From Burkholderiales bacterium (lineage in GTDB: Bacteria; Pseudomonadota; Gammaproteobacteria; Burkholderiales; WYBJ01): a stretch of DNA of 40,499 nucleotides. The number at the start of each line of letters is the position of its first letter. Position 1 is the stretch's first letter. The stretch is taken from contig JBIKKL010000002.1 in the NCBI GenBank assembly GCA_044360365.1, positions 1 to 40,499 on the forward strand, read 5' to 3'. A program made the translations under genes and the position numbers. Shown here piece by piece: positions 19,887 to 24,652 of this stretch. The notes beneath the pieces were generated by a model. That model was not told the origin of the DNA. It saw only the letters and a list, made by a program, of their open reading frames with translations, and did not search any database.

Positions 19887-20504
19887 ATGAGCATCTACGC
19901 CTTCAAGCCGCGGTTCCAGGCATTGCTGCGCCCCATCGTGCGCGCTTTGCATCGAGCCGGGGTAACTGCCAATCAGGTGACCCTCTTCGCCTGCGTGATC
20001 TCGATTGCGGCAGGCACAGCGGTCGCGCTCAATGCGGACGATCTTCGCTGGTTCCTGCTCATTCCCGTCTGGTTCTTTCTGCGGATGGCATTCAATGCCA
20101 TCGACGGCATGCTCGCACGCGAGCATGATCAACGTTCGGTGCTGGGTGCGTATCTGAACGAACTGACTGATGTCGTTTCCGATGCCGCGCTCTACGTGCC
20201 TTTCGCCTTTTTGCCCGGCGTGCATCCGCTCGTCCTCGGCGGCGTCGTACTGCTGGCTGCCGTCAGCGAGATGACAGGCGTGCTCGGCAGTGCGCTCGGC
20301 GCCTCGCGGCGCTACGACGGACCCATGGGCAAGAGCGATCGGGCATTCGTCTTCGGTGCGCTCGGGCTCTCCATCGGTCTTGGCGTCGTCCCCGGGGAAT
20401 GGCTAACGTTCGTGCTCGCCGGTATCGGCCTGCTCGTCTGCCTGACGATCGTCAATCGGGTTCGACGCGGCATCGCAGAGATCGATTCAAGGAGTAGTGC
20501 ATGA
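19887..20504 (+). CDS. CDP-alcohol phosphatidyltransferase family membrane protein (YnbA-like)
   Basis: ATG at 19887. FNAIDGMLAREHDQRSVLGAYLNELTDVVSD matches DG-x2-AR-x8-G-x3-(D/N)-x3-D. Multiple TM segments. Confidence 0.85.
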   Translation: MSIYAFKPRFQALLRPIVRALHRAGVTANQVTLFACVISIAAGTAVALNADDLRWFLLIPVWFFLRMAFNAIDGMLAREHDQRSVLGAYLNELTDVVSDAALYVPFAFLPGVHPLVLGGVVLLAAVSEMTGVLGSALGASRRYDGPMGKSDRAFVFGALGLSIGLGVVPGEWLTFVLAGIGLLVCLTIVNRVRRGIAEIDSRSSA

Positions 20505-22318
20505 ACGATGCAGGTTCGCTCGGCGCGCCGAGTCGAGCGGCACAATCGATCGAGGGCAAGCGGATTGCCGAAACGCACACGTTCGTCACACACGACGGCA
20601 CCGAACTCTTCTATCGTCACTGGCCTGCAGCGCGACCAGGCGACCGACGCCGCGGCATCGTCCTGTTTCATCGCGGTCACGAGCATTCGGGGCGTCTGCA
20701 GCACGTGGTCGACGAACTCGCACTGGAGACCATCGACATGTTCGCCTGGGATGCACGCGGGCACGGCCGCTCGCCCGGCGAACGCGGCGACAGTCCGAGC
20801 TTCGGTGCTTCGGTGAAGGACATCGACAGGTTCGTCCGTCACATCGCGCAAGTGCACGACATCCCATCGACCGAGCTCGCCATCGTGGCACAGAGCATGG
20901 CCGCGGTGCTTGTCGCGACGTGGGTTCACGACTATGCGCCGCGCGTACGCTGCCTTGCGTTCACCTCGCCCGCCTTCAAGGTGAAGCTCTACGTGCCGTT
21001 CGCGCGGGCGGGTCTCGGGCTCATGTATCGCCTGCGCGGCAACTTCTTCGTCACCTCCTACGTCAAGGCGCGGTTCCTGACCCACGATCCGGAACGCATG
21101 CGCAGCTATGACGAGGATCCGCTGATCGCCCGCGCCATTTCCGTTCGCATCCTGCTCGGCCTGTACGAGGCGGCCGAGCGCATCGTCGCCGACGCGCAGT
21201 CCATCCGCGCGCCGCTCCTGCTGCTCGTATCCGATACGGACTGGGTCGTGCACCGAGGTCCGCAGGAAGCCTTCTTCGATCGCCTGGGCTCGAAGATCAA
21301 GGAGAAGCACGTCCTGCCGAATTTCCTGCACGACACCCTGGGGGAGAAGGATCGGCATCTTGCCATCGACCGGATCCGCGACTTCGTGCTGCGAATGTTC
21401 GAAGGCGAATGTGCTGCCGATTCGCAGCGCAAAGCCCATCGTGAGGGCCACGCCTACGATGAAGAGCAGTCGCTGCGTCGTCCGTTGCCCGCCCTCTCGC
21501 CGCGCAATCTCAACTTTGCACTGACGCGCCTGTCGATGCGCACGCTGGGTCGACTCTCGAGCGGCATCCGCCTCGGGCTCGCCACAGGCTTCGATTCCGG
21601 TGCATCGCTCGACTACGTCTATCGCAACCAGGCCGAGGGCAGACTCGGCCTGGGCAAGCTCATCGATCGAGGCTATCTCGATGCGATCGGCTGGCGTGGC
21701 GTGCGCATACGCCGCGAACATCTTCGCACTGCGATTGCCACTGCAGCGGATCGACTGAAAACGCACGGCAAGCCGATTCGATTCGCGGACATGGCCTCGG
21801 GTCCCGGCCGCTATGTTCTCGATGCGCTCGCCGAAGCCGGCGTGCAGCCGGAAGCCATCCTCCTGCGCGACATCGTGGAGGCAAACGTCCTCGCGTGCCG
21901 GAAGGAGATCGAACAACGCGACTTGCGATCGATCGCCCGCTGCGAGCGTGCGGATGCATTCGATCCCGCCTCGGTCGCAGCGCTCGATCCTGCCCCCACG
22001 CTGACGCTCGTCTCGGGTTTGTACGAACTTTTCTCCGACAACGCTCGTGTGAGCACATCGCTCGCCGCGATCGGTCGTGCGATGGCGCCCGGCAGTTGTC
22101 TCGTCTATACGGGTCAGCCTTGGCATCCGCAGCTCGAACTGATCGCACGCACCCTGACGAGCCACCGCGATGGGCAGCCGTGGATCATGCGCCGACGCAG
22201 TCAGGCGGAACTCGACGAACTGGTGCGTGATGCCGGATTCGAGAAGCTCGAGCAGTGGATCGACGCATGGGGCATGTTCACGGTATCGCTCGCGGTGCGC
22301 ACCGACGCCGGATCGTGA
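20501..22318 (+). CDS. bifunctional alpha/beta-hydrolase (lysophospholipase-like) / class I SAM-dependent methyltransferase (YnbC-like)
   Basis: AAGGAG lies 6 nt before the ATG at 20501, and ATGA overlaps the upstream stop. N-terminal half: GIVLFHRGHEHSGR...WDARGHGRSPG, elbow AQSMA, later SDTDWVV and FLHDTL. C-terminal half: ADMASGPGRYVLDAL (SAM motif I) ...LVSGLYELF. Confidence 0.85.
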   Translation: MNDAGSLGAPSRAAQSIEGKRIAETHTFVTHDGTELFYRHWPAARPGDRRRGIVLFHRGHEHSGRLQHVVDELALETIDMFAWDARGHGRSPGERGDSPSFGASVKDIDRFVRHIAQVHDIPSTELAIVAQSMAAVLVATWVHDYAPRVRCLAFTSPAFKVKLYVPFARAGLGLMYRLRGNFFVTSYVKARFLTHDPERMRSYDEDPLIARAISVRILLGLYEAAERIVADAQSIRAPLLLLVSDTDWVVHRGPQEAFFDRLGSKIKEKHVLPNFLHDTLGEKDRHLAIDRIRDFVLRMFEGECAADSQRKAHREGHAYDEEQSLRRPLPALSPRNLNFALTRLSMRTLGRLSSGIRLGLATGFDSGASLDYVYRNQAEGRLGLGKLIDRGYLDAIGWRGVRIRREHLRTAIATAADRLKTHGKPIRFADMASGPGRYVLDALAEAGVQPEAILLRDIVEANVLACRKEIEQRDLRSIARCERADAFDPASVAALDPAPTLTLVSGLYELFSDNARVSTSLAAIGRAMAPGSCLVYTGQPWHPQLELIARTLTSHRDGQPWIMRRRSQAELDELVRDAGFEKLEQWIDAWGMFTVSLAVRTDAGS

Positions 22319-23718: not shown

Positions 23719-23746
23719 GGCAGGACGCGCCGAGACCGCTCCGACG

Positions 23747-24652
23747 ATGCACGTCTATACAACACTTGCTCTCGGCATCCTCGTCGCGCTGGTCGCGGCG
23801 ACCCTCCTCGGCCGGATCATCAAGCGTCATCGCTCGCCCCACGAACCGCATGCCGTCATCGACAACATGAACACCCGTATCGATGCGTGGTGGATCATCG
23901 CGTCGCTCCTGTTCGCAGCGTCATGGCTCGGCGCCGTCGGCCTCGCCATGCTGTTCGCTGCAGCATCGCTGCAAGCGTCACGCGAATACGTTCCCGGGAT
24001 GCCGGCAGCAGCGTGGGTGTCGTTGGCCGCAGCGATCGCCCTGCAATATGTCCTCGCTGTCGGGGGACCTTCGATCGTGTTCCTGCTCATGCTGCCCCTG
24101 ATCGTTGCGGCGATCATCGGGGCGTCTGCACTCGGCATACCGCGGCGGGCGCACTCCAACCGCCTGTCCGGCGCATTGCTGCTGTGCGTCTACTGCGTAT
24201 CCCACGTACCTGCGCTGACGTCGCTGGAAGTGCCCAACGCAGCCGGCAGCCACCTCGGCCCCGCGCTGTTCCTCGTCATCGTCGTGCAGGCAAGCGACGT
24301 GATGCAGTACATTGCAGGCAAGCTCGCGGGCCGACATCCGATCGCGCCGCGGTTGTCCCCCGGGAAAACCGTCGAGGGCGCACTGGGTGGGCTGCTTGGC
24401 GCCGGTGTGCTCGGGGCCGCTCTGGCTGCATTGACCCCGTATGGCGTCGGCACGGCAGCGGCGCTGGCCGTCGGGCTCGCTGCGCTCGGCATCGCCGGCG
24501 GGCTACTGTTCTCCGCCATGAAGCGCAAGCGGGGCATCAAGGATTGGAGCGATGTCATCCCGGGTCACGGCGGCGTGCTCGACCGCCTGGATTCACTCTG
24601 CCTCTGCGCACCTGCCTTCTATCATCTGCTGCGCATCTCGTACGGCACCTGA
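23747..24652 (+). CDS. phosphatidate cytidylyltransferase (CDP-diglyceride synthase) family protein, probable CdsA paralogue (YnbB-like)
   Basis: [12 protein letters not shown] and [29 protein letters not shown] form the CDS-family signature. Polytopic membrane protein, 28 nt after the preceding stop. Confidence 0.85.
   Translation: [301 protein letters not shown]

What the first reader, a model, noticed from the sequence alone, without database searches (positions are those of the whole stretch)
19887..24652. ynbABCD-like, translationally coupled membrane-lipid operon whose product is unknown
Four same-strand genes are tightly coupled: ATGA overlap at 20501-20504, GTGA overlap at 22315-22318, and a 28-nt gap before 23747. 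Motifs read directly from the translations: (1) a CDP-alcohol phosphatidyltransferase signature; (2) a lysophospholipase-like alpha/beta-hydrolase fused to a SAM methyltransferase; (3) a PSLH / QHHFID PAP2 membrane domain fused to a CX5R phosphatase; (4) a CDP-diglyceride-synthase signature. Domain set and protein sizes match my recollection of E. coli ynbA/ynbB/ynbC/ynbD, with the order here A-C-D-B. To my knowledge only YnbB has been linked to a function, as a CdsA paralogue feeding the glycolipid MPIase. The end product and the roles of the transferase, the hydrolase-methyltransferase and the phosphatase remain undefined. A self-contained set of activate, transfer, dephosphorylate and methylate/deacylate steps argues for a dedicated non-housekeeping polar lipid or lipid-linked carrier.
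Basis: partly seen in the sequence, partly recalled or inferred. Interest (0 to 1): 0.7.

Follow-up and report, generated by a model that had tools for sequence, protein, structure and literature searches.

The report
ynbABCD-type membrane-lipid operon, order A-C-D-B
Four tightly packed genes in an uncultured Burkholderiales bacterium are full-length relatives of the E. coli ynbA, ynbC, ynbD and ynbB genes, a widespread gene set for a still unidentified specialised membrane lipid, so this is a new member of a known but unsolved system.

Summary
Four intact same-strand ORFs lie at 19887-24652, with the junctions as described: an ATGA overlap, a GTGA overlap and a 28-nt gap.

Each protein is a full-length homologue of an E. 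coli K-12 Ynb protein:
- YnbA: 42% identity, E 1e-47
- YnbC: 53%, E 0
- YnbD: 38%, E 4e-79
- YnbB: 31%, E 2e-32

In 66 of 67 related loci with enough flanking DNA, all four genes sit together.

New details from this analysis:
- The commonest architecture has six genes, A-C-D-TM-AT-B. It adds a PlsC-like acyltransferase (AT) and a small membrane protein (TM). The window, like E. coli, has neither.
- The window's clade instead carries a conserved convergent gene for a membrane-anchored SnoaL-like protein.
- Across the YnbA clade, the first and third aspartates of the CDP-alcohol transferase motif are asparagines.
- YnbD's membrane domain keeps the catalytic His/His/Asp of PAP2 enzymes. It lacks their phosphate-clamping Lys and Arg.
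- The PAP2-like site is predicted to face the periplasm and the Cys-phosphatase domain the cytoplasm.
- Natural YnbA-YnbC and YnbA-acyltransferase fusion proteins exist.

The end product remains unknown. Paper searches failed all session, so recent literature could not be checked.

Verdict: a real but ordinary new member of a known, functionally unsolved operon family.

The parts
19887..20504 (+). ynbA-like gene: 205-aa polytopic membrane protein of the CDP-alcohol phosphatidyltransferase superfamily. Its motif is the variant NAIDGMLAR-x8-GAYLNELTDVVSD. It also carries a second conserved, basic motif, RRYDGPMGKSDR.
   Evidence: Pfam PF01066, 30.3 bits. 42% identity and E 1e-47 to E. coli YnbA over 193 aa. 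Closest solved structures are mycobacterial phosphatidylinositol-phosphate synthases, 6h53/6h5a, E 3.7e-8. The Asn/Asn motif variant is invariant in 76 of 76 locus homologues and found in 117 of 123 regex-matched cluster representatives.
20501..22318 (+). ynbC-like gene: 605-aa protein with no predicted membrane segment. A monoacylglycerol-lipase-like alpha/beta hydrolase (Ser132/Asp247/His277) is fused to a class I SAM methyltransferase (Methyltransf_20).
   Evidence: Pfam Hydrolase_4 E 7.7e-66 and Methyltransf_20 E 7.8e-129. 53% identity to E. coli YnbC over 587 aa. PDB monoacylglycerol lipase 6qe2, E 4.6e-18. The catalytic triad and the SAM-binding Asp/Gly residues are invariant in 81 homologues. 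Start codon overlaps the ynbA stop (ATGA), with AGGAG 6 nt upstream.
22315..23718 (+). ynbD-like gene: 467-aa membrane protein. The N-terminal PAP2-like domain (PSLH, S-x6-HH-x2-D) is predicted to face the periplasm. Two further transmembrane helices follow, then a cytoplasmic dual-specificity (CX5R) phosphatase domain. Alternative starts are at 22267 and 22255.
   Evidence: Pfam DSPc 41.9 bits; PAP2 21 bits, below cut-off. 38% identity and E 4e-79 to E. coli YnbD. AlphaFold2 model pLDDT 86.9. Foldseek places the C-terminal domain with dual-specificity phosphatases. For the N-terminal domain the best hit is the sphingomyelin-synthase-related protein 8ijq, E 0.08. Catalytic residues are invariant in 75-79 homologues. 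Topology is inferred from the positive-inside rule. Gene callers disagree on the start codon.
23747..24652 (+). ynbB-like gene: 301-aa CDP-diacylglycerol-synthase paralogue with an intact cytidylyltransferase signature.
   Evidence: Pfam CTP_transf_1 E 9.8e-52. 31% identity over 296 aa to E. coli YnbB (108 bits), against 91 bits over only 138 aa to E. coli CdsA. Scores far below the NCBIfam CdsA equivalog cut-off, 94.9 against 385. All 74 homologues score higher against YnbB than against CdsA.
24661..25269 (-). Probable accessory gene, convergent with ynbB. It encodes a SnoaL/NTF2-like protein with an N-terminal signal-like segment and a C-terminal membrane anchor. It is conserved only next to ynb clusters that lack the acyltransferase gene.
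   Evidence: Pfam SnoaL_3 E 9.5e-7. Homologues of 54-78% identity lie immediately downstream of B, convergent, in L002, L004, L005, L009 and L016, and in none of the 62 loci with the acyltransferase. Hydrophobic segments at both ends. Membership of the system is inferred from synteny only.

Best explanation
This is an orthologue of the E. coli ynbABCD operon in an uncultured Burkholderiales bacterium, in the order ynbA-ynbC-ynbD-ynbB. It most likely encodes a self-contained, non-housekeeping pathway that makes and remodels a low-abundance glycerophospholipid derived from CDP-diacylglycerol.

Proposed steps:
1. YnbB, a CdsA paralogue, converts phosphatidate plus CTP into a dedicated pool of CDP-diacylglycerol at the cytoplasmic face. 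The intact active-site signature is shown; the activity is inferred.
2. YnbA uses that donor to phosphatidylate a phosphorylated acceptor. Its closest characterised relatives are the phosphatidylinositol-phosphate and archaetidylinositol-phosphate synthases. Because its metal site has two Asp replaced by Asn, its chemistry may differ from the canonical enzymes. This step is inferred.
3. The cytoplasmic Cys-based phosphatase domain of YnbD removes the terminal phosphate. This is the logic of the PgsA/PTPMT1 and PIP-synthase/PIP-phosphatase pairs. Inferred.
4. The periplasm-facing PAP2-like domain of YnbD keeps the catalytic His/His/Asp but lacks the Lys and Arg that clamp a phosphomonoester. 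It probably acts on a phosphodiester, as a head-group transferase or phosphodiesterase in the manner of sphingomyelin and inositol-phosphorylceramide synthases. Inferred; structural support is weak.
5. YnbC deacylates the lipid or an intermediate with its lipase-like domain and methylates it with SAM. Inferred.

In most relatives a PlsC-like acyltransferase and a small membrane protein complete the pathway. Here they are absent, and a membrane-anchored periplasmic SnoaL-like protein is the clade-specific partner. The chemical identity of the product is not known.
For: - Homology to YnbA/B/C/D over the full lengths.
- Domain content.
- Coupled junctions.
- More than 523 species encode a YnbC relative. 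A, B, C and D are co-located in 66 of 67 loci with adequate flanks, and 62 of the 67 also carry a PlsC-like acyltransferase with the H-x4-D and FPEGTR motifs.
- Natural fusion proteins YnbA-YnbC (P0121, 807 aa) and YnbA-acyltransferase (P0197, 436 aa) exist.
- Predicted catalytic residues of B, C and both D domains are invariant across 74-81 homologues.
- YnbA's nearest characterised relatives are PIP and archaetidylinositol-phosphate synthases.
- The phosphatase profile of YnbD matches dual-specificity phosphatases, including the lipid phosphatase PTPMT1 at E 1.5e-9.
- The PAP2 C3 motif aligns with lipid phosphate phosphatase 1, but with Val in place of the motif's Arg.
- The best structural match of the membrane domain is the sphingomyelin-synthase-related protein.
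- Topology.
- B groups with YnbB, not CdsA.
- E. coli has both cdsA and ynbB, and ynbABCD is missing from about 15% of complete E. coli genomes, so it is dispensable there.
Against: - No product or enzymatic activity is known for any of these proteins except what I recall for E. coli YnbB.
- YnbA lacks two of the four aspartates that are conserved in the characterised CDP-alcohol phosphotransferases I compared (the mycobacterial PIP synthases) or know of. More distant clade members even lose the motif's Arg. It may therefore not be a conventional phosphatidyltransferase.
- The structural link of the PAP2-like domain to sphingomyelin synthases is weak (E 0.08, TM 0.36-0.40).
- The phosphatase P-loop, CALGYSR, resembles the protein phosphatase VHZ more than known lipid phosphatases.
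- The methyltransferase domain has no informative relative.
- No conserved neighbour points to an acceptor substrate.
- The window's YnbC carries unique substitutions at near-invariant positions, and its YnbB is the most divergent of 74.
- The literature could not be consulted.
Confidence: 0.55

Rival explanations
1. The cluster builds a diacylglycerol-pyrophosphate-linked glycolipid of the MPIase type. YnbB supplies CDP-diacylglycerol. YnbA, with its less negatively charged Asn/Asn active site, transfers the phosphatidyl group onto the phosphate of a sugar-1-phosphate, forming a pyrophosphate bond. The periplasmic PAP2-like domain of YnbD processes or recycles the pyrophosphate lipid, much as PAP2 enzymes recycle undecaprenyl pyrophosphate.
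For: The invariant Asp-to-Asn changes in YnbA and the basic motif RRYDGPMGKSDR would suit an anionic phosphate nucleophile. The PAP2 site is predicted to face the periplasm.
Against: No glycosyltransferase, flippase or sugar-nucleotide gene is conserved near the cluster in 80 loci. The PAP2-like domain lacks the Lys and Arg residues that pyrophosphate phosphatases of this family use. This model gives no role to the lipase-methyltransferase. MPIase has, to my knowledge, been described only in E. coli, whereas the cluster is common in Pseudomonas, Variovorax, Cupriavidus and Accumulibacter.
Confidence: 0.15
2. The cluster is a conditionally used back-up for housekeeping phospholipid synthesis. 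It would be a second CdsA / PgsA-like / phosphatidylglycerol-phosphate-phosphatase route to phosphatidylglycerol or a close analogue, used under particular stresses, with YnbC as a remodelling enzyme.
For: The CdsA-like, CDP-alcohol-transferase-like and phosphatase domains mirror the phosphatidylglycerol pathway. PTPMT1, the mitochondrial phosphatidylglycerol-phosphate phosphatase, is among the matches of the YnbD phosphatase profile. The associated PlsC-like acyltransferase in most loci fits de novo phosphatidate supply.
Against: YnbA scores only 16-18 bits against the PgsA models, against cut-offs of 109-304, and has the altered motif. A simple back-up route would not need a fused PAP2 domain, a lipase-methyltransferase or a small membrane protein, yet these are strictly co-conserved. 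YnbA-YnbC fusions argue that methylation or deacylation is integral to the pathway.
Confidence: 0.12
3. The cluster is mainly a lipid-turnover or signalling module. YnbC releases a fatty acid or head group from a phospholipid and methylates it, for example to a fatty-acid methyl ester. The other proteins recycle the remaining lipid backbone.
For: A monoacylglycerol-lipase-like hydrolase fused to a SAM methyltransferase is the most conserved protein of the set, at 53-77% identity.
Against: Nothing in the sequence indicates the methyl acceptor. The CdsA-like and transferase genes are biosynthetic, not degradative. No regulator or export gene is conserved nearby.
Confidence: 0.08

Closest known systems
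Escherichia coli K-12 ynbABCD operon (b1408-b1411)
   Same: All four proteins are full-length homologues (42, 31, 53 and 38% identity). They share the same two fused architectures: hydrolase plus methyltransferase, and PAP2-like plus dual-specificity phosphatase. YnbA has the same Asn/Asn motif variant. The genes are on one strand and tightly spaced, and there is no acyltransferase gene.
   Different: Gene order is A-C-D-B instead of A-B-C-D. The host is an uncultured Burkholderiales bacterium. A convergent SnoaL-like partner gene is present here and absent in E. coli. The window's YnbB and YnbC are unusually divergent.
Six-gene ynb-type clusters of Pseudomonas, Variovorax and Cupriavidus, and the MAGs labelled Burkholderiales and Rhodocyclaceae (A-C-D-TM-AT-B)
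   Same: Same A-C-D...B core order and orientation. Identities are 52-68% (A), 57-77% (C), 41-58% (D) and 38-54% (B).
   Different: These carry a roughly 145-aa membrane protein and a roughly 206-aa PlsC-like acyltransferase between D and B. The window has only 28 nt there and no copy of either gene anywhere in its 40 kb.
Phosphatidylinositol-phosphate synthase plus PIP phosphatase, and PgsA plus PTPMT1/Pgp (two-step head-group attachment from CDP-diacylglycerol)
   Same: Same proposed logic: a CDP-alcohol-transferase-fold enzyme followed by a phosphatase. YnbA's best characterised relatives are PIP and archaetidylinositol-phosphate synthases. The YnbD phosphatase domain is of the same fold class as PTPMT1.
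   Different: YnbA scores far below the equivalog cut-offs (65.5 against 180; 49.5 against 170). It has Asn at two of the four motif aspartates. No inositol-phosphate synthase gene is linked. The phosphatase is fused to a second, PAP2-like domain.
Sphingomyelin synthase / inositol-phosphorylceramide synthase type PAP2 transferases
   Same: Catalytic His (C2), His and Asp (C3) are retained, while the C1 Lys/Arg and the C3 Arg are missing. The active site is predicted on the outer face of the membrane. The best Foldseek hit of the membrane domain is the human sphingomyelin-synthase-related protein 8ijq. Some homologues match Pfam PAP2_3.
   Different: The structural match is weak (E 0.08, TM about 0.4). 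Sequence matches to PAP2 and PAP2_C are below threshold. No ceramide pathway is implied. The domain is fused to a cytoplasmic phosphatase.
Housekeeping CDP-diglyceride synthase CdsA
   Same: Same Pfam family and an intact cytidylyltransferase signature in the C-terminal half.
   Different: The N-terminal half is unrelated at BLAST level. It scores 94.9 bits against the 385-bit equivalog cut-off. It is not located next to uppS/dxr/rseP, where E. coli cdsA lies.

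Membership tests
ynbABCD-type operon | YnbA-like protein: full-length homology and the NxxDG...GxxxNxxxD motif | tested here: met
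   42% identity, E 1e-47. The window and E. coli share the motif with 76 of 76 homologues.
ynbABCD-type operon | YnbC-like fusion of Hydrolase_4 and Methyltransf_20 | tested here: met
   Pfam E 7.7e-66 and 7.8e-129. 53% identity over 587 aa.
ynbABCD-type operon | YnbD-like fusion of a PAP2-like membrane domain and a CX5R phosphatase | tested here: met
   38% identity over 435 aa, E 4e-79. Motifs are invariant.
ynbABCD-type operon | YnbB-like CdsA paralogue, closer to YnbB than to CdsA | tested here: met
   108 bits over 296 aa against YnbB; 91 bits over 138 aa against CdsA. The margin is small for the window protein but holds in 74 of 74 homologues.
ynbABCD-type operon | The four genes co-located on one strand | tested here: met
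   The same holds in 66 of 67 related loci.
CDP-alcohol phosphatidyltransferase (PF01066 / motif D1xxD2GxxAR-x8-GxxxD3xxxD4) | Pfam score above the gathering threshold | tested here: met
   30.3 bits against 22.
CDP-alcohol phosphatidyltransferase (PF01066 / motif D1xxD2GxxAR-x8-GxxxD3xxxD4) | All four motif aspartates present | tested here: not met
   D1 and D3 are Asn, as seen in the alignment to PIP synthase 6h5a. Conserved across the clade.
CDP-alcohol phosphatidyltransferase (PF01066 / motif D1xxD2GxxAR-x8-GxxxD3xxxD4) | Transfers a phosphatidyl group from CDP-diacylglycerol with release of CMP | not testable with these tools
   Needs an enzyme assay.
Phosphatidylinositol-phosphate / archaetidylinositol-phosphate synthase (NCBIfam equivalogs) | Score above the equivalog cut-off | tested here: not met
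   65.5 against 180, and 49.5 against 170.
Phosphatidate cytidylyltransferase CdsA | Cytidylyltransferase signature S-x-x-K-R-x4-K-D-x6-G-H-G-G-x-x-D-R-x-D | tested here: met
   [27 protein letters not shown]. The key residues are invariant in 74 homologues.
Phosphatidate cytidylyltransferase CdsA | Housekeeping equivalog (NCBIfam PRK11624 cut-off; uppS-cdsA-rseP context) | tested here: not met
   94.9 against 385 bits. The genomic context differs.
PAP2 lipid phosphate phosphatase | Three motifs: C1 KxxxxxxRP, C2 PSGH, C3 SRxxxxxHxxxD | tested here: not met
   C2 (PSLH) is present, as are the C3 His and Asp. The C1 basic residues are not conserved, and the C3 Arg is Val. The Pfam score of 21 is below the 27.2 cut-off.
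Sphingomyelin / IPC synthase type PAP2 transferase | His-His-Asp triad without the phosphomonoester clamp, plus fold similarity | tested here: inconclusive
   The motif pattern fits. Foldseek top hit is 8ijq, but at E 0.08 and TM 0.36-0.40. PAP2_C scores 14.9 bits, below cut-off.
Dual-specificity (Cys-based) phosphatase | CX5R P-loop, a general-acid Asp upstream, and the DSP fold | tested here: met
   C385-x5-R391 and D356 are invariant. Pfam DSPc scores above cut-off. Foldseek probability 1.00 to many DSP structures.
MPIase biosynthesis | Required for, or increases, a diacylglycerol-pyrophosphate-linked glycolipid | not testable with these tools
   Needs glycolipid analysis. The E. coli YnbB link is from memory only, because the literature tools failed.

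The most novel reading that the evidence does not exclude
The YnbA clade is a distinct kind of CDP-alcohol-transferase-fold enzyme. Its Asn/Asn active site lets a phosphomonoester, rather than a hydroxyl group, attack CDP-diacylglycerol, producing diacylglycerol-pyrophosphate-X. The ynb genes would then run a diacylglycerol-pyrophosphate carrier-lipid cycle analogous to the undecaprenyl-pyrophosphate cycle. The lipid would be made at the cytoplasmic face by YnbB and YnbA, trimmed by the cytoplasmic phosphatase, and used and recycled at the periplasmic face by the PAP2-like domain of YnbD. This would also explain the reported YnbB-MPIase link.
Probability: 0.1. Interest if true: 0.85.

Novelty: new member of a known kind. 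Interest (0 to 1): 0.4.

Why it matters
The ynb gene set is one of the few remaining lipid-enzyme operons of E. coli K-12 with no assigned product. This analysis shows it is not an enterobacterial oddity. It is a conserved module of beta- and gammaproteobacteria, found in more than 523 species representatives.

The analysis also defines the fuller form of the module. That form is usually six genes and includes an acyltransferase. Two unusual active sites are conserved: an Asn-substituted CDP-alcohol transferase motif, and a clamp-less PAP2 site facing the periplasm.

If the product were identified, it would add a new branch to bacterial phospholipid metabolism and could clarify how the glycolipid MPIase is made. 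The window itself adds only one more, uncultured and reduced, example. E. coli or Pseudomonas remain the practical systems for experiments.

Tried and rejected
- **Literature.** Twelve paper searches or look-ups all failed with database time-outs.
- **Foldseek with the full-length YnbD model.** It returned only dual-specificity phosphatases and said nothing about the membrane domain. A separate N-terminal model gave only a weak sphingomyelin-synthase-related hit.
- **Profile search of the YnbC methyltransferase domain against PDB sequences.** Nothing significant; best E 0.12.
- **Neighbourhood clustering of 80 loci for further conserved genes**, such as sugar, inositol or flippase genes. Only genus-specific neighbours were found: in Pseudomonas, for example, a cation-ATPase-like protein and a methyltransferase-like protein, identified by reading the sequences rather than by a profile search. 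Spurious antisense ORFs in this high-GC DNA made the clustering noisy.
- **Upstream SAM methyltransferase (19059-19811) as a fifth operon gene.** Rejected. It is conserved only in contigs of the same species. In the closest other genome (L016) about 4.3 kb lie between the PCuAC gene and ynbA, and the window's upstream methyltransferase gave no tblastn match there.
- **Promoter, terminator, Rfam and tRNA scans.** Nothing informative.
- **Acyltransferase and small membrane protein genes elsewhere in the window.** tblastn found none.
- **Housekeeping cdsA elsewhere in the genome.** Not testable.

Full report
**1. The observation**

Region 19887-24652 holds four intact ORFs on the + strand:
- A: 19887-20504, 205 aa
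- C: 20501-22318, 605 aa
- D: 22315-23718, 467 aa
- B: 23747-24652, 301 aa

- ATGA lies at 20501-20504, with an AGGAG Shine-Dalgarno-like element 6 nt upstream.
- GTGA lies at 22315-22318.
- The D stop codon TGA is at 23716-23718, followed by 28 nt before the ATG at 23747.

The start of D is ambiguous. Public gene calls on identical contigs use either ATG 22267 (483 aa, 52-nt overlap) or the GTG at 22315. The conserved part of the protein family begins about ten residues after the GTG start, so the 4-nt overlap is plausible.

GC content is uniform across the operon and its flanks. No Rfam family, tRNA, sigma-70-like promoter or convincing terminator was found.

**2. Identity of the four genes**

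Pfam assigns the following:

| Gene | Pfam match |
|---|---|
| A | CDP-OH_P_transf |
| C | Hydrolase_4 plus Methyltransf_20 |
| D | DSPc, plus a sub-threshold PAP2 match |
| B | CTP_transf_1 |

I fetched the E. coli K-12 ynbABCD locus and compared the proteins directly.

| Window protein | E. coli partner | Identity | E value |
|---|---|---|---|
| A | YnbA | 42% | 1e-47 |
| B | YnbB | 31% over 296 aa | 2e-32 |
| C | YnbC | 53% over 587 aa | 0 |
| D | YnbD | 38% over 435 aa | 4e-79 |

B aligns with the housekeeping E. coli CdsA only over its C-terminal 138 residues, at 91 bits against 108 bits for YnbB. It also falls far below the NCBIfam CdsA equivalog cut-off. All 74 B-type homologues collected score higher against YnbB than against CdsA, with medians of 178 and 96 bits.

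**3. Conservation and the fuller form of the system**

I scanned one genome per species with a YnbC alignment. It found at least 523 species with a relative, and the best 80 loci were kept. Those named include Accumulibacter, Variovorax, Cupriavidus, Pseudomonas and Chitiniphilus, with several less precisely named metagenome bins.

tblastn of the window proteins shows A, B, C and D together in 66 of 67 loci with enough flanking DNA.

The dominant architecture has six genes, A-C-D-TM-AT-B, and is found in 54 loci.
- TM is a membrane protein of about 145 aa with no Pfam match.
- AT is a PlsC-family acyltransferase of about 206 aa, carrying NHSSHGDF (the H-x4-D motif) and FPEGTR.

Five loci (Andreprevotia, Jeongeupia and Chitiniphilus) have A-B-AT-C-D. 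E. coli has A-B-C-D without AT.

The window has only 28 nt between D and B, and no AT or TM gene anywhere in its 40 kb. Its architecture is A-C-D-B followed by a convergent SnoaL-like gene. This is shared with L002, L005 and L016, and in rearranged form with L004 and L009. These are its closest relatives. No other neighbour is conserved beyond genus level.

Among cluster representatives of the YnbA family there are apparently genuine fusion proteins: YnbA-YnbC (P0121, 807 aa) and YnbA-AT (P0197, 436 aa). These support a shared pathway.

In E. coli the operon is present in 4623 of 5426 complete genomes. It is therefore common but dispensable. RefSeq still gives it only generic product names.

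**4. Anatomy of the proteins**

*YnbA-like.* The canonical CDP-alcohol phosphotransferase motif is D1xxD2GxxAR-x8-GxxxD3xxxD4. Here it reads NAIDGMLAR-x8-GAYLNELTD. In the alignment to mycobacterial PIP synthase (6h5a), D1 and D3 are Asn.
- This holds in 76 of 76 homologues from the loci, including E. coli YnbA.
- It holds in 117 of 123 representatives that matched the motif pattern.
- More distant members even replace the motif's Arg with K, N, I, V, T, W or G while keeping N..D..N..D.
- A second conserved, basic motif is RRYDGPMGKSDR.
- The clade comprises 251 clusters (at 50% identity) with E of 1e-30 or better.
- The nearest characterised families are archaetidylinositol-phosphate and PIP synthases, but the scores are far below their cut-offs.

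To my knowledge, all characterised members of this superfamily keep the four aspartates. The 'signature' is therefore only partly met, and the chemistry may be modified.

*YnbC-like.* The N-terminal domain is related to monoacylglycerol lipases (6qe2, E 4.6e-18). Ser132, Asp247 and His277 and the HRGHEH oxyanion-region motif are invariant. The SAM-binding residues Asp430, Gly434, Gly436 and Asp457 are also invariant. The methyltransferase half has no informative solved relative. There is no strongly hydrophobic segment.

The window protein has unique substitutions at otherwise near-invariant positions: M133, A134, M431, S433, P435 and I458.

*YnbD-like.* AlphaFold2 gives a confident model (pLDDT 86.9). 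It shows six core membrane helices, two more helices, then a phosphatase domain.
- The C-terminal domain is a dual-specificity phosphatase. Foldseek gives probability 1.00, and the profile matches include PTPMT1 at E 1.5e-9.
- Asp356, Cys385 and Arg391 are invariant.
- The membrane domain keeps PAP2 motif C2 (PSLH) and the His and Asp of C3 (S175-x6-H182-H183-x2-D186). These align with lipid phosphate phosphatase 1.
- The C3 Arg is Val, and the C1 Lys/Arg positions are not conserved.
- This pattern is typical of PAP2-type phosphodiester transferases such as sphingomyelin and IPC synthases (established family knowledge).
- The best structural hit of a separate N-terminal model is the human sphingomyelin-synthase-related protein. 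The match is weak: E 0.08, TM 0.36-0.40, model pLDDT 73.
- The loop after the sixth core helix is strongly basic: six Lys/Arg in loop 201-217, plus three more (RRR) at the start of the next helix. This places the PAP2-like site on the periplasmic face and the phosphatase in the cytoplasm (an inference from the positive-inside rule).

*YnbB-like.* The cytidylyltransferase signature is intact and invariant.

**5. Most likely mechanism**

Shown by the data: four co-conserved membrane-lipid enzymes with preserved active sites, usually accompanied by an acyltransferase.

Inferred: a private CDP-diacylglycerol-dependent pathway.
1. AT, where present, and YnbB supply phosphatidate and CDP-diacylglycerol.
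2. YnbA attaches a probably phosphorylated head-group precursor.
3. The cytoplasmic phosphatase of YnbD removes the terminal phosphate.
4. The periplasm-facing, clamp-less PAP2 domain transfers or cleaves a phosphodiester-linked head group.
5. YnbC deacylates and methylates.

I give about 0.95 to the statement that this is a ynb-type lipid operon. I give about 0.35-0.4 to the step-by-step scheme.

The rivals are listed separately: an MPIase-type pyrophosphate glycolipid, a back-up phosphatidylglycerol route, and a turnover or signalling module. The product remains unidentified.

**6. Comparison with known systems, and novelty**

The closest known system is the E. coli ynbABCD operon itself. 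This window is a new, reduced member of that family in an uncultured Burkholderiales bacterium. Identical contigs occur in several metagenomes, and the closest species representative is a Burkholderiales MAG at 77% YnbC identity.

It works like two-step head-group attachment pathways (PIP synthase with its phosphatase; PgsA with PTPMT1). It fails the membership tests for those equivalogs and for the full CDP-alcohol motif.

The link of YnbB to MPIase is from my memory only and could not be verified.

**7. Verdict**

The finding is real and correctly interpreted. It is also ordinary in the sense that it re-discovers a known, functionally unsolved operon family, in an organism less tractable than E. 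coli.

The comparative results may help whoever tackles the function:
- the six-gene form with an acyltransferase
- the natural fusion proteins
- the Asn/Asn YnbA motif
- the two-faced YnbD protein
- the clade-specific SnoaL-like partner

Interest 0.4. Novelty: new member of a known kind.

Noticed in passing
window 24661-25269 (- strand): A SnoaL/NTF2-like protein with a signal-like N-terminus and a C-terminal membrane anchor. It lies convergent with, and 8 nt after, ynbB. Homologues of 54-78% identity occupy the same position in L002, L004, L005, L009 and L016. These loci carry differing taxonomic labels, and all lack the acyltransferase gene. It is more conserved than YnbB itself. Public gene calls start it at an internal Met and lose the signal segment.
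   Followed up: partly
window 17764-19811 (+ strand): A copper-handling-like gene string directly upstream: DUF2946 (17764-18162), a small Pro-rich membrane protein (18235-18570), the copper chaperone PCu(A)C (18570-19025), then a SAM methyltransferase with an N-terminal hydrophobic segment (19059-19811). The methyltransferase ends 75 nt before ynbA but is not conserved next to ynb clusters in other genomes.
   Followed up: partly
window 20501-22318 and 23747-24652: The window's YnbC differs from 78-81 of 81 homologues at six near-invariant positions beside the nucleophile and in the SAM-binding loop: AQSMA against AQSVG, and DMASGPG against DIAAGHG. Its YnbB is the most divergent of 74. This may mean faster evolution in the clade that lost the acyltransferase.
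   Followed up: partly
proteins P0121 and P0197: Natural fusion proteins in metagenomes: YnbA-YnbC (807 aa) and YnbA-PlsC-like acyltransferase (436 aa). Other long hits (P0179, P0181, P0209) look like frameshifted or mis-assembled reads.
   Followed up: partly
L009 13411-15111: In a Hydrogenophilales MAG, a 566-aa ORF of unknown function sits between ynbD and ynbB, where other genomes have the small membrane protein and the acyltransferase.
   Followed up: no
E. coli genomes: ynbABCD is present in 4623 of 5426 complete E. coli genomes (4284 with at least 80% of the operon). All five listed top hits have an IS element (IS1, IS3-family, IS4-like or IS5-family) inserted in the operon, consistent with dispensability. 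The listing order may favour such split matches.
   Followed up: no
window 25333-25989 and 27013-27534 (- strand): Two ORFs of 218 and 173 aa with no Pfam match flank a TctC-family solute receptor gene (25947-26927). They lie next to genes for an FAD-dependent oxidoreductase and an arylmalonate-decarboxylase-like protein. Their function is unknown.
   Followed up: no
L004 10001-14150: One related locus, a groundwater MAG labelled Gammaproteobacteria, has C directly followed by B, then the SnoaL-like gene and an inverted A. No ynbD was detected in the 21.8-kb locus. It is the only one of the 67 loci with adequate flanks that lacks one of the four core genes.
   Followed up: no
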